A stretch of DNA of 64,000 nt from the NCBI RefSeq assembly GCF_058153355.1, contig NZ_CM177019.1; one strand, given 5' to 3'. Positions 21,001 through 24,000 of this stretch are shown here, one piece after another (within the stretch, counting starts at the first letter, position 1; the number at the start of each line of letters is the position of its first letter). A program made the position numbers.

Positions 21001-24000
21001 ACTCAATGACGGTAACGGGCTTTCGTTGCTCATTGAGCCGAACGGTTCGAAAGGGTGGCGACTGCGCTACAGGTTTGCAGGAAAGCCCAAAATGTTGTCG
21101 TTGGGTGTGTACCCTGATGTGTCTCTGTCTGATGCCAGGGCGGCAAGGGATGAGGCTAAAAGGCTTCTTGCTGGTGGTATAAATCCAAGTGAGGCCAGAA
21201 AAGCCCAAAAGCGAGAACAGGCGAGCAAATTTGGCAATACTTTTGAGGGTATCGCTCGCGAATGGTACGAAAAGCGGATCGACAGGTGGTCATCGTCATA
21301 CGCCGAGGAAATGATCGAGACGTTTGAAAAAGACGTTTTTCCGTACATTGGCGGTAGGCCGATCGCAGAAATTAAGCCGATGGAATTGCTGGCGGTTCTT
21401 TCCCGTCTTAATGACCGTGGTGCGACTGAAAAATTGCGTAAGGTTCGCCAGCGATGTGGCGAGGTGTTCCGGTACGCAATCATCACCGGACGCGCCGAAT
21501 ATAATCCAGCCCCTGACCTGGTGAGCGCATTTGCTCCACATAAAAAAGAGCATTACGCCTGTTTGAAGGCCGATGAACTGCCGGAATTTTTCCGCGTTTT
21601 TAATACGTACACCGGAAGCCAGATCGTCAAACTGGCAATGCGGCTATTAATTCTGACAGGTGTCAGACCCGGGGAATTACGGCAGGCAGAATGGCGGGAG
21701 ATCGATTTTGATAATCGTTTGTGGGAAGTGCCTAAAGAACGAATGAAGATGCGCCGTCCGCATTGCGTGCCATTACCAGAACAGGCGATAAAAATACTGG
21801 AGCAGTTAAAAAACATGACAGGTCAGTATCAGTTTATTTTCCCCGGTCGTATTCACCACAGTAAACCAATGAGTGAAATGGCAATGAATGTGCTCATTCG
21901 TCGTATTGGCTACGCCGGGCGCGTTACTGGTCATGGATTCCGGCACACCATGAGCACCATTTTGCATGAGCAGGGCTATAACACCGCGTGGATAGAGACA
22001 CAGCTTGCGCACGCCGATAAAAACTCAATTCGTGGCACATACAACCATGCGCAATATCTGGATGGCAGACGCGAAATGCTCCAGTGGTATGCCGACTATA
22101 TGGATTCGCTCGAGCATGGCGGAAATGTGGTGCATGGTGAGTTCGGAAAATGCGGGGGACTGGTTGAGTATACAGTAGTAGACTTTGAGCGACTAAAAAC
22201 GGCTGTGTCTAGGGTCGCTCCTGAAAACCCGTACACCTCTGCGGGCTGGCACAGCCACTATGGTAGAGGGCGCGAGGTGACGCGTGATCGATATTGCCGA
22301 ATTACTTAACGCAGAAAAGAATAATTTCATTAGCCTGAGAGAGTTAATAGAGCGTATTAAATTATCTCAACCGAAAGCTACTACATCCCAGATAGTAAGT
22401 TTTCTTTATCAGACGCGGCAGAAATTACCCGAATGGGTTAAGTGGGATGAAATGATGGGCATTGAGCAAACATCGGAGAATCCTTTTGATGGGGATTGGT
22501 CTTTATCAGAGGTTCTTGAAGGCATTTTAAGACTAGGCTTTGTGCCAGAGGTTGAAGATTCTGTACCCCTCGCTATCGATGATAGCGACGATATTCCGTA
22601 TTGATGAAGACTTAAGGTGAATTATGGCAGATGAAGTTTATTTGGCTCGTGCTTGTGATAAGTATGGTTTTCGTCGAGCAGAGCTTAAAGAATTTGCTGA
22701 AAAACTAGGGGTTAATTTATTTTCCCCAATGGATGAAATAACCCAGTCCATTCCTGAGGTTGCTGCTAGTGATTCTTTGAATAATGGGCCGACTGTTGAT
22801 GAATTACGTGCGGAAATTGCTTTACTTAAAGCGCGAATTGAAGAACTTGAAAGCGAACGACCAATTCTCTTAAATAAATACAGGGATAATGATCCGCTAT
22901 ATCTGGCTATCGAGATTAGAAACAGAGAGTGGGCCAATTACGACCCGGAGAATGATCGCGCCACCAGGGGAAACCAGGGCGCGATTACTACTGAGCTTGA
23001 AAAACGAGGTTTTACCTCCCGACAGGCCGCATCTATTGAGCTTGTCGCCTGTCCTATCAAACGATGAAGCCTTACCCTAGAGGTATCTCATGTTTTGTTC
23101 GCGTCTCACCCTAAGGGTAATCAGACCTCACCCTTAGGGTATTTTTGTATGCTTTCCCATCAATTTTACTATTACCCTTAGGGTAAAAATATTCCCGATT
23201 ACCATTAGGCCTGAGGGTATGAAAATATTCGTTATTTCTGTGCCATGATTACCTCGTCAAATTGAGTAGACGTTATGAGGTAAATATATGTCAAATACGC
23301 TTATTCGTTTAACGGAAGTTCAGCGTAGAACTGGATATAGCAAGGCATGGATTTATCGCCTTATGGGGCAAGGTAAATTTCCTGCATCAGTTAAAATTGG
23401 CTCGCGAGCTATTGCTTTCGTTGAGAGTGAAATTGACGAGTGGATTAATCAGCGTATTGCTGAATCACGCGGAACAGCTACCTGATTAAATGGCTACGGG
23501 GCCAGAAGCCCCAGCTATCCACCAGCAAATAAAAAGTAACTTAATTCGATAGCAGGAGTTTTTATGAAATTTCCAAAAACGCCCATACAGGGGCAGGGCT
23601 TCGTTCGGCTTGAAAACCAGAATCTGCAAAATTTTGGCAAAATTATCCCGGTTATTTCCGGCGTTATTGGCGGGCGTGAAACCAATATTGTTAGCGCCAG
23701 AGCGTTGCATAAGGCGCTCGGGGTAGGCCGTGATTTCACAACCTGGATTAAAGTACGCATTGATGAGTACGGATTTAAAAAGGGCGTGGATTTTGAATTC
23801 GTAGAAAATTTGACCTCCCCCAATCCGGTGAGCGCAAAATCTCGCCAACGTATAGAGCACGACTACCTGAGCACTATCAACATGGCGAAAGAACTGGCGA
23901 TGGTCGAACGCACCGAACAGGGCCGCGCCGTTCGTCAGTATTTCATCAAATGCGAGGAGGAGCTACACAAGGTAGCGCCTGTGCGTTCCGCAGCGTTACG

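What the first reader, a model, noticed from the sequence alone, without database searches (positions are those of the whole stretch)
22284..23067. Uncharacterised two-gene cassette between the integrase and alpA
Two tightly spaced ORFs (106 aa acidic; 147 aa with coiled-coil) occupy the int-proximal position, which in P4-like satellites is a known hotspot for variable accessory and defence cargo. Neither matches a family I recognise.
Basis: inference. Interest (0 to 1): 0.45.

Follow-up and report, generated by a model that had tools for sequence, protein, structure and literature searches.

The report
Satellite regulator pair with SSB-tail mimic
The two unnamed genes are probably not defence cargo but a conserved two-part regulator sitting in front of the phage-satellite's master switch gene alpA, and one part carries a copy of the tail by which the bacterial DNA-binding protein SSB recruits its partners, which suggests how such islands might sense a helper phage.

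Summary
Both ORFs exist as described: A at 22284-22604 (106 aa, pI 4.2) and B at 22624-23067 (147 aa, with a coiled coil). Neither matches Pfam, NCBIfam, PADLOC or PHROGs.

They are not variable cargo. The order A, partner, alpA recurs in Escherichia, Enterobacter, Salmonella, Kluyvera, Pantoea, Raoultella, Cedecea-like and Yersinia islands. In most E. coli islands A and B are one fused protein of about 250 aa.

The island is a PICI related to EcCICFT073 (primase 94% identical), not a P4-like element. EcCICFT073 itself lacks the cassette.

- **SSB tail.** Every intact free-standing A homologue ends in an acidic tail like the C-terminal tip of SSB. Several end in EPPMDFDDDIPF, identical to the last 12 residues of E. 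coli SSB. The window's copy ends DDSDDIPY.
- **Operator array.** The B-alpA spacer holds 4-5 phased copies of the palindrome ACCCTNAGGGT. This array occurs only where the B-type C-terminal domain occurs. It does not follow AlpA (97% identical, array absent), the integrase, or the A domain.

Best reading (inferred, not shown): B is a dimeric operator-binding regulator of alpA. A is its partner subunit, and its SSB-like tail couples the regulator to SSB-binding phage or host proteins.

Interest is moderately high; nothing has been tested experimentally.

The parts
20707..20780 (+). tRNA-Gly(CCC), the integration site at the left end of the island
   Evidence: ARAGORN. The same actS/ygeR - tRNA-Gly - int layout is seen in sister loci.
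20945..22309 (+). P4-type tyrosine integrase, 454 aa here because the normal stop (22157-22159, TGA in relatives) reads GGA
   Evidence: Pfam Arm-DNA-bind_3, Phage_int_M and Phage_integrase. Relatives have a 404-aa product. The alignment shows the T-to-G change at 22157.
22284..22604 (+). ORF1 = 'A', 106 aa, acidic. A small helix / beta-hairpin domain (residues 1-84) followed by a disordered tail.
   Evidence: AlphaFold2 mean pLDDT 80: H4-12, H18-28, H34-43, hairpin 52-62, H74-84. No significant structural neighbour.
22536..22601 (+). C-terminal tail of A (residues 85-106, ...VPEVEDSVPLAIDDSDDIPY), a diverged copy of the SSB C-terminal acidic tip
   Evidence: Aligns with the tails ...EPPMDFDDDIPF of homologues. 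E. coli SSB (PDB 1EQQ) ends ...SNEPPMDFDDDIPF. 19 cluster representatives carry the tail: 16 free-standing A proteins of 89-125 aa and 3 longer ones of 225-234 aa with an N-terminal extension.
22624..23067 (+). ORF2 = 'B', 147 aa. N-terminal YGFRR segment (residues 14-27), disordered linker, coiled-coil helix (58-78), conserved four-helix C-terminal domain (86-147).
   Evidence: 76 homologues. Alignment A3 with its invariant residues. AlphaFold2 model. In fused homologues the A domain precedes the GFRR segment in one chain.
22879..23064 (+). C-terminal domain of B (D90 P91 L92 ... R99 W103 ... T114 R115 x N117 Q118 ... I138 E139 x V141 A142 C143 P144 I145 x R147), the proposed DNA-binding domain
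   Evidence: Invariant columns. pLDDT 82-92. Distantly homologous to the C-terminal domain of the alternative slot protein in L039 (hhalign 87%, E 4e-6). Co-occurs with the palindrome array.
23073..23219 (.). Array of five palindromic sites: 23073-23085 TACCCTAGAGGTA; 23108-23118, 23130-23140 and 23174-23184 ACCCT(A/T)AGGGT; 23200-23219 split site TACCATTAGG/CCTGAGGGTA. Centre-to-centre spacing about 34, 22, 44 and 31 bp. Candidate operators of the alpA promoter.
   Evidence: the repeat finder. Three exact matches sit in this 220-bp spacer; the whole 64-kb window has 5 matches at up to 1 mismatch against 0.94 expected, a count reached by 0 of 100 shuffles. The same array and spacing occur in other genera.
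23288..23485 (+). alpA (65 aa), the master activator gene of Gram-negative PICIs and the presumed target of regulation
   Evidence: PF05930, E 2e-19. Role of AlpA taken from PMC6092414 and PMC11773190.

Best explanation
A and B are the two subunits of a regulator dedicated to alpA, the island's master activator gene.

B dimerises through its coiled coil. Its conserved C-terminal helical domain binds the phased ACCCTNAGGGT palindromes that fill the B-alpA spacer. I think B most likely holds the alpA promoter off while the island is quiescent; the sign of regulation is not known.

A binds the N-terminal GFRR segment of B. In most E. coli islands the two are one polypeptide.

[quoted passage not shown] SSB uses this peptide to recruit its partner enzymes. 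The tail would let the regulator be engaged by proteins that dock on SSB tails: phage recombinases and mediators such as Red-beta or Orf-type proteins, or host replication and repair enzymes gathered at replicating phage DNA. That would couple alpA expression, and so island excision and replication, to the helper phage's lytic cycle.

Shown here:
- synteny with alpA;
- the A-B fusions;
- the identity of the tail to SSB;
- the exclusive co-occurrence of the array with the B-type domain.

Inferred:
- DNA binding by B;
- repression rather than activation;
- tail-partner binding;
- which protein is sensed.
For: 1. Linkage to alpA. The order A, partner, alpA is found in E. coli, Enterobacter, Salmonella (two types), Kluyvera, Pantoea, Raoultella, a Cedecea-like metagenome contig and Yersinia. 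In Yersinia the integrase is at the far end of the island, so the cassette travels with alpA.

2. A and B work together. Single proteins of about 250 aa begin with the A domain and continue into the GFRR segment, coiled coil and B C-terminal domain. Every split partner starts with the GF(R/N/S)R segment. The gap between the genes is 17-21 nt, or the genes overlap by 4 nt.

3. Operators. There are 3-7 copies of ACCCTNAGGGT (up to 2 mismatches) in the spacer in all 9 locus types that have the B-type C-terminal domain. There are none in L039, L040, L043 and L044, which lack it. In Kluyvera, Pantoea and Raoultella each locus has 4 sites, these are the only matches in about 8.4 kb of locus, and two of the three loci show the window's spacing of about 32/22/44 bp.

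4. What the array does not follow.
- AlpA: window against L039 is 97% identical, array present against absent.
- Integrase: L008 against L039 is 85% identical, present against absent; window against L008 is 66% identical, present in both.
- The A domain: about 20% identity between split and fused forms that both have the array; L040 has an A with a tail but no array.

5. A palindromic site fits a coiled-coil dimer.

6. The tail. 19 cluster representatives end in [DE]..[IVL]P[FY]: 16 free-standing A proteins of 89-125 aa and 3 longer ones of 225-234 aa with an N-terminal extension. The rest are fused forms of about 225-355 aa, fragments or frameshift variants, two very long proteins (1,933 and 2,249 aa) and one 135-aa protein cut off at the GFKK segment. 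L008 and L045 end in EPPMDFDDDIPF, the last 12 residues of E. coli SSB, and SSB is the top PDB match to the tail.

7. Literature. The SSB tip docks by its terminal Phe and free carboxylate into pockets on partner proteins (PMC3159472). At least 17 partners use it (PMC10018359). The paper on the Red-beta C-terminal domain reports an interaction with E. coli SSB in its title and includes an assay of Red-beta binding to the SSB tip peptide (PMC6393309). [quoted passage not shown] SaPI2's repressor Stl2 senses phage recombinases whose C-terminal domains engage the SSB tail (PMC11846896).
Against: - The array could be bound by an unidentified host factor.
- No sigma-70-like promoter was found in the spacer, so the position of the sites relative to the promoter is unknown.
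- The fused forms, which are the majority in E. coli, have no free tail. The tail therefore cannot be essential to the basic function.
- The window's own tail ends in Tyr, not Phe, and has lost the PMDF part. It may bind SSB partners weakly or not at all.
- EcCICFT073, the PICI for which helper-dependent alpA induction was shown, has no A/B and no such array. This module cannot be the general sensing mechanism.
- All genes point the same way, unlike the divergent repressor layout of Gram-positive PICIs.
Confidence: 0.45

Rival explanations
1. Origin or replisome-recruitment module. B binds the repeated sites as an origin-like landing pad. The SSB-like tail of A recruits host SSB partners (PriA, DnaG, the chi subunit of Pol III) to start or boost island replication.
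For: The SSB tip is the known recruitment handle for replication and restart proteins (PMC10018359, PMC5872125). The sites are multiple and phased by about 11 bp. The island has its own primase-helicase and SSB.
Against: The sites are palindromes, not direct iterons. They lie directly upstream of alpA and 6-9 kb from the primase gene. The fused forms lack the tail yet keep the array. Relatives with a 94% identical primase (EcCICFT073) have neither cassette nor array.
Confidence: 0.15
2. Interference or defence cargo. A acts as a decoy SSB tail that soaks up phage or host SSB-binding proteins and blocks competing phages. B is an accessory or scaffold.
For: Satellites do carry defence genes. A free SSB-tip peptide would compete with SSB for its partners (mechanism in PMC3159472). 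SaPI2 Stl2 both regulates the island and inhibits phage recombinases (PMC11846896). The slot is polymorphic among E. coli PICIs.
Against: No PADLOC match. Synteny with alpA is strict across genera, and a dedicated DNA array follows the B domain, which cargo would not show. Tail-less fused versions are common. A single tail per small protein is a weak competitor for tetrameric SSB (inference).
Confidence: 0.12
3. Accessory factor for excision or integration. A/B bends DNA or modulates the integrase or AlpA as part of the recombination machinery, and is not a transcription regulator.
For: It lies between int and an AlpA/excisionase-family gene. AlpA-family proteins can act as excisionases (PMC11773190).
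Against: The array is more than 2 kb from the tRNA attachment site. It does not follow the integrase type. In Yersinia the cassette is far from int.
Confidence: 0.08

Closest known systems
Stl/Rpr master repressors of Gram-positive PICIs, especially SaPI2 Stl2
   Same: A satellite-encoded regulator next to int. It keeps the island silent and is thought to be relieved by a conserved helper-phage protein. Stl2's targets are phage recombinases that work with the SSB tail (PMC6092414, PMC11846896).
   Different: No sequence or fold similarity was found. The layout is co-directional, not divergent. The design is two-subunit or fused, with a coiled coil. The presumed target is the promoter of an activator gene (alpA). 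An SSB-tip mimic is unknown in Stl proteins. None of the functional steps has been shown here.
C-terminal acidic tip of bacterial SSB (MDFDDDIPF)
   Same: Homologues of A end in the identical 12 residues EPPMDFDDDIPF. All free-standing family members keep an acidic run plus [IVL]-P-[FY] at the very C-terminus, after a disordered Pro-rich linker, as SSB does.
   Different: A has no OB fold and no PF00436 match, so it is not an SSB. There is one tail per small helical protein. The window copy reads DDSDDIPY.
AlpA-controlled Gram-negative PICIs (EcCICFT073, EcCIMP1)
   Same: The same kind of island: int at a tRNA gene, alpA downstream, DUF4222, Pri-Rep (94% identical), SSB, PerC.
   Different: EcCICFT073 has a 365-bp non-coding int-alpA spacer with other repeats, and its AlpA is only 36% identical. 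EcCIMP1 has an unrelated small ORF there. The A/B module and its palindrome array have not been described in those papers.
bZIP / coiled-coil DNA-binding proteins (RefSeq labels some fused homologues 'bZIP transcription factor')
   Same: A dimerising heptad helix next to a presumed DNA-binding part. The target sites are palindromic.
   Different: There is no basic region before the zipper; that segment is acidic and disordered. The conserved domain lies C-terminal to the zipper. Pfam bZIP_1 gives only E 0.036, below threshold.

Membership tests
P4-like satellite with an accessory/defence hotspot | The element carries the P4 core set (psu, delta, sid, epsilon and alpha, besides int and alpA/vis) | tested here: not met
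   Pfam and PHROGs scans of the island ORFs found Ant, Ash-type regulator, DUF4222, primase, SSB, ProQ, PerC, DUF2213-like and terS-like, and no psu, sid or delta. The primase of sister islands is 94% identical to EcCICFT073 Pri-Rep.
P4-like satellite with an accessory/defence hotspot | Hotspot content is exchangeable cargo: unrelated genes in otherwise related elements, with no fixed partner gene | tested here: not met
   The order A, partner, alpA is conserved in at least eight genera and stays with alpA when int is elsewhere. A cognate DNA array co-varies with B. Caveat: the slot is empty in EcCICFT073 and holds a different protein in L039.
Known anti-phage defence systems | Match to a defence-protein model | tested here: not met
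   PADLOC-DB gives 0 families for either protein at E up to 1.
SSB (single-stranded DNA-binding protein) | OB-fold ssDNA-binding core (PF00436) | tested here: not met
   No PF00436 hit. The AlphaFold2 model is helical with one hairpin. The island's true SSB is at 33375-33797.
SSB (single-stranded DNA-binding protein) | Disordered linker ending in the acidic tip D-D-D-I-P-F at the free C-terminus | tested here: met
   Homologues end in EPPMDFDDDIPF, the C-terminus of PDB 1EQQ SSB. 19 cluster representatives keep the motif: 16 free-standing proteins of 89-125 aa and 3 longer ones with an N-terminal extension. The window copy is diverged (DDSDDIPY). Binding to SSB partners has not been tested.
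PICI master repressor (Stl/Rpr-like helper sensor) | Sequence-specific DNA binding at the promoter that controls the island's induction genes | tested here: inconclusive
   A phased palindrome array upstream of alpA co-occurs only with the B-type domain. No recognised DNA-binding fold was found and there are no binding data.
PICI master repressor (Stl/Rpr-like helper sensor) | Divergent orientation from the regulated operon | tested here: not met
   int, A, B, alpA and the downstream genes are all on the + strand.
PICI master repressor (Stl/Rpr-like helper sensor) | Derepression by direct binding of a helper-phage protein | not testable with these tools
   This needs genetics or biochemistry. 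The only lead is the SSB-tip mimic, together with published Red-beta/Sak interactions with SSB.
bZIP transcription factor | Basic DNA-contact region immediately N-terminal to the leucine zipper | tested here: not met
   Residues 36-57, before the helix, are acidic and poorly ordered: the 10-residue blocks covering residues 31-60 have mean pLDDT 46-72, with residues 40-51 below 50. bZIP_1 gives E 0.036 at 14.6 bits against a cut-off of 27.6.
Excisionase / recombination directionality factor | Small winged-helix Xis/AlpA-type domain (PF05930, PF12728, TIGR01764) | tested here: not met
   These models hit alpA (23288-23485) but not A or B.
Gram-negative PICI (the island as a whole) | int at a tRNA site, alpA downstream in the same direction, pri-rep, a small island with packaging-hijack genes | tested here: met
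   tRNA-Gly, int, alpA, primase (here split by an IS110-family element), SSB, PerC, terS-like. Synteny with EcCICFT073 and 94% primase identity. Mobilisation was not tested, and this copy carries IS insertions.

The most novel reading that the evidence does not exclude
The A family would be the first natural non-SSB proteins that display the host SSB C-terminal tip as bait. Phage satellites would use it, tethered to a DNA-bound partner at the alpA promoter, to detect SSB-tail-binding proteins produced or concentrated during helper-phage replication and recombination. That detection would trigger induction. If so, this is a helper-sensing mechanism for a large group of Gram-negative PICI-like islands, including islands fixed in the Yersinia pestis/pseudotuberculosis complex. 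It would be conceptually parallel to Stl2 but built from unrelated parts.
Probability: 0.25. Interest if true: 0.85.

Novelty: new variant of a known kind. Interest (0 to 1): 0.62.

Why it matters
How Gram-negative phage-inducible islands stay silent, and how they notice their helper phage, is an acknowledged gap. The founding paper states that a global repressor is 'unclear' and that the phage inducer was still being sought (PMC6092414).

This locus offers concrete candidates that can be tested with routine methods:
- a defined protein pair;
- a defined 150-bp operator array;
- a defined peptide (the SSB tip) with a well-characterised set of binding partners.

Gel shifts, reporter fusions, tail truncations and peptide-binding assays would each give a clear answer.

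Separately, a non-SSB protein carrying an exact copy of the SSB tip is a new example of molecular mimicry of a central hub of bacterial DNA metabolism. It is relevant to work on SSB-partner interactions as antibacterial targets and on phage recombineering.

If the idea is wrong, the result is still useful. It removes this cassette from the list of candidate defence cargo. It also shows that the island is an EcCICFT073-type PICI with an alternative regulatory module.

Tried and rejected
- **Family searches.** Pfam, NCBIfam, PADLOC and PHROGs gave only noise above E 0.05 for both proteins.
- **PDB by sequence.** A profile search with the B alignment gave only coiled-coil noise.
- **Phage records.** tblastn of A and B against 50,697 phage records found no match, so these are island genes, not phage genes.
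- **Promoter scan.** None found in 20780-23600, and no + strand terminator after B.
- **RNA structure in the int-A spacer.** z = -0.21, nothing there.
- **Was the tail captured from an ssb gene?** At DNA level the 69-nt query matches the 3' ends of ssb genes on plasmids at about 81% over 46 nt, E = 6. This is uninformative.
- **Is the gene between int and alpA in EcCIMP1 the same thing?** No. It is a much smaller ORF once mislabelled UvrB.
- **Toxin-antitoxin reading (small acidic protein plus partner).** Rejected, because natural single-chain fusions are the common form and B has no enzyme-like domain.
- **The palindromes as AlpA sites or integrase arm sites.** Rejected by the dissociation tests.
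Full report
**1. What is there**

The window carries tRNA-Gly(CCC) at 20707-20780. 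Next comes a P4-type tyrosine integrase, then ORF1 (22284-22604, GTG start, 106 aa) and ORF2 (22624-23067, 147 aa), then a 220-bp spacer and an AlpA-family gene at 23288-23485.
- ORF1 is acidic: pI 4.17.
- ORF2 has a good ribosome-binding site and a long central helix.
- The 26-nt overlap of ORF1 with the integrase is a local accident. At 22157 the window reads G where relatives read T. This turns the stop TGA into GGA and lengthens the integrase from 404 to 454 aa.

I call the two proteins A and B.

**2. Not in any described family**

- Pfam, NCBIfam, PADLOC and PHROGs give nothing for A or B.
- A profile of the B family finds only coiled-coil noise in PDB sequences.
- A consists of three helices, a beta-hairpin and a fourth helix, followed by 22 disordered residues. 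The order of elements recalls a winged helix, but I could not substantiate that.
- B has a short N-terminal helical segment around an invariant GF(R/K)R, a disordered acidic linker, a 21-residue heptad helix, and a compact four-helix C-terminal domain with many invariant residues.

**3. Which island**

The genes downstream are an AntA-domain protein, an Ash-type regulator, DUF4222, a D5_N/DUF5906 primase (here cut by an IS110-family element), SSB, ProQ/FinO, PerC, a DUF2213-like protein and a terS-like protein.
- The intact primase of a sister island is 94% identical to the Pri-Rep of EcCICFT073, the experimentally validated E. coli PICI, and the gene order is the same.
- No P4 morphogenesis genes (psu, sid, delta) were detected.
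- The element is therefore an EcCICFT073-type PICI, not a P4-like satellite.
- Its left-hand module differs. EcCICFT073 has a 365-bp non-coding int-alpA spacer with unrelated repeats, and its AlpA is only 36% identical.

**4. The cassette is conserved with alpA**

- B has 76 homologues in Escherichia, Salmonella, Klebsiella, Enterobacter, Serratia, Proteus, Yersinia, Pectobacterium, Morganella and others.
- Wherever I looked at context, the order was int, a gene of about 100-125 aa, the B homologue, alpA. This holds in E. coli at the same tRNA-Gly site (17 contigs), an unassigned contig, Enterobacter, two Salmonella types, and Kluyvera, Pantoea and Raoultella.
- An exhaustive profile search with the A family found 44 cluster representatives.
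- Distant members sit in the same arrangement with other partners: L040 and L043, and a cluster present on more than 1,000 Yersinia contigs, including the Y. pestis / Y. pseudotuberculosis complex.
- In the Yersinia island the integrase is at the opposite end, so the conserved unit is A, partner, alpA.
- Neither protein occurs in 50,697 phage records.

**5. A and B are two halves of one protein**

About a third of the B homologues are about 250 aa long. They begin MIDI..EL......FISLR.., which is the A domain, and then run through the GFRR segment and coiled coil into the B C-terminal domain.
- All 22 IMG/VR loci, and the complete E. coli genome I inspected from the array-bearing group (L038), carry this fused form.
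- No complete E. coli genome among 5,426 has the window's split version. 147 share the 3' half of B plus the spacer, and 167 share this alpA allele.
- Every split partner starts, within its first 10-25 residues, with the GF(R/N/S)R segment.
- This fusion/fission pattern is strong evidence that A contacts the N-terminal segment of B.

**6. The tail**

The alignment of free-standing A proteins showed an unexpected feature.
- All end in an acidic stretch followed by [IVL]-P-[FY] at the very C-terminus.
- Several end in ...SEPPMDFDDDIPF.
- A PDB search with the last 30 residues of the Enterobacter protein returns E. coli SSB as the top hit. The match falls at SSB's own C-terminus (...AAPSNEPPMDFDDDIPF, residue 178 of 178), identical over 12 residues.
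- Among the 50%-identity representatives, 19 carry the motif: 16 free-standing proteins of 89-125 aa and 3 longer ones of 225-234 aa with an N-terminal extension. The rest are fused forms of about 225-355 aa, fragments, two frameshift variants, two very long proteins (1,933 and 2,249 aa) and one protein truncated at the GFKK segment.
- The window's tail, VPEVEDSVPLAIDDSDDIPY, aligns with these but is diverged and ends in Tyr.

The SSB tip is the handle by which SSB recruits at least 17 genome-maintenance enzymes (PMC10018359). It docks through the terminal Phe side chain and its free carboxylate (PMC3159472). This explains why a tail makes sense only on the split form. A has no OB fold, so it is not an SSB. 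I found no paper in the searchable library describing such a protein.

**7. The spacer**

Between B and alpA lie five copies of a 13-bp palindrome with the core ACCCTNAGGGT, at 23073, 23108, 23130, 23174 and a split copy at 23200-23219. Their centres are about 34, 22, 44 and 31 bp apart, close to multiples of a helical turn.
- Three exact matches lie in this spacer. The whole window has 5 matches at up to 1 mismatch against 0.94 expected, a count reached by none of 100 shuffles.
- The same array is present in every locus type with a B-type C-terminal domain, split or fused, in E. coli, Enterobacter, Salmonella, Kluyvera, Pantoea and Raoultella. In the last three it provides the only matches in the whole locus, and in Pantoea and Raoultella the spacing is the window's 32/22/44.
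- It is absent where that domain is absent:
  - L039, whose AlpA is 97% identical to the window's and whose integrase is 85% identical to that of the array-bearing L008;
  - L040, L043 and L044, which have an A protein with the tail but another partner.
- The A domains of split and fused array-bearing loci are only about 20% identical. That is no closer than the A of the array-less L040.

So the array follows the C-terminal domain of B, not AlpA, the integrase or A. A palindrome bound by a coiled-coil dimer is the simplest reading.
- In Pasteurellaceae, divergent B-type domains are followed by a wide inverted repeat containing the same CACCC/GGGTG half-sites and then an AlpA-like gene.
- The alternative slot protein of L039 ends in a domain distantly homologous to that of B (hhalign 87%, E 4e-6). 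Its spacer has different palindromes.

**8. How it probably works**

Published work establishes three points for Gram-negative PICIs (PMC6092414 and PMC11773190).
- AlpA is the activator that starts the PICI cycle.
- Neither a repressor nor the inducer is known.

Against that background I propose the following.
- B, or the fused protein, is the operator-binding regulator of the alpA promoter, most likely a repressor.
- The A domain, with the GFRR segment, is the signal-receiving part.
- In split versions, the SSB-like tail lets proteins that dock on SSB tails engage the complex.

There is precedent. The paper on the Red-beta C-terminal domain reports an interaction with E. coli SSB and includes an assay of Red-beta binding to the SSB tip peptide (PMC6393309). 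Phage Sak needs the SSB tail for its activity, and SaPI2's repressor Stl2 is controlled by exactly such recombinases (PMC11846896).

What is shown: the synteny, the fusions, the tail identity, and the array/domain co-occurrence. What is inferred: DNA binding, the direction of regulation, tail-partner binding, and the identity of the signal.

Weak points:
- there is no recognisable DNA-binding fold;
- tail-less fused forms are common;
- the window's tail is degenerate;
- EcCICFT073 has no cassette, so this cannot be the universal mechanism.

**9. Rivals**

- A replication-recruitment role fits the biology of the SSB tip. It does not fit the palindromic, alpA-proximal sites, the tail-less fusions, or relatives with the same primase but no array.
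- A decoy or defence role is not excluded as a second function, as with Stl2. It does not explain the dedicated DNA array or the strict linkage to alpA, and no defence model matches.
- A recombination-accessory role is unlikely given the distance from the attachment site and the Yersinia layout.

**10. Verdict**

It is not hotspot cargo of a P4-like element. It is a conserved, modular regulatory pair of a PICI, with an unreported SSB-tip mimic and a cognate operator array. I rate it a new variant of a known kind (a satellite master-regulator module). Interest is 0.62. Confidence in the core model is 0.45, and in the full helper-sensing reading about 0.25.

Noticed in passing
window 22157-22159: The integrase stop codon TGA of relatives reads GGA here and in L006. 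This extends the integrase by 50 residues, to 454 aa, so that it overlaps ORF1.
   Followed up: yes
window 29149-32833: The island's primase gene is split by an IS110-family transposase gene (30248-31423). Directly after it lie three perfect tandem copies of a 205-bp unit (31484-32104, 100% identical). The intact gene in sister islands encodes 584 aa.
   Followed up: partly
window 26075-28438 (+) and 39714-42077 (-): Two IS66-type copies (ORFs of 142, 115 and 523 aa), in inverted orientation, bracket most of the island's right half. This copy of the island is probably immobile or rearranged.
   Followed up: no
window 24357-25976: This is a 539-aa ORF, but only the last 190 or so residues match Ash-type or 'transcriptional repressor' families. 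In sister islands the stretch is called as two or three smaller genes (DUF4222 of 60 aa, Ash of 283 aa). The N-terminal two thirds look like a spurious extension.
   Followed up: partly
window 38351-39276: A SocA/Panacea-domain protein (161 aa) overlaps by 4 nt with a 147-aa ORF of no known family. This looks like a toxin-antitoxin pair and a better candidate for accessory cargo than the finding itself. It has no PADLOC match.
   Followed up: partly
window 23564-24364: The AntA-domain protein after alpA matches the candidate defence family PDC-S22 of PADLOC in its C-terminal part (E 7e-9). AntA, Bro-N or pRha genes follow alpA in most related islands.
   Followed up: no
L039 2548-3330 (E. coli EC23-1020, proA/tRNA-Thr site): This is an alternative occupant of the int-alpA slot. 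It is a 260-aa protein of another widespread family (62 homologues, reaching Pseudomonas and Azotobacter). Its C-terminal domain is distantly homologous to that of B, and its spacer has different palindromes.
   Followed up: partly
L060 7001-8417 (Yersinia chromosome): An A homologue with the tail ...EEDDHELPF, a 218-aa partner with a third type of C-terminal domain, and alpA are present on more than 1,000 Yersinia contigs, including the Y. pestis / Y. pseudotuberculosis complex. They lie next to Fic, a PAAR/pyocin-S domain protein and MqsRA genes.
   Followed up: partly
window 33375-33797: The island encodes its own SSB (PF00436), whose tail ends ...DDPYGDNIPF. The island therefore carries two different proteins with SSB-type tips.
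   Followed up: no
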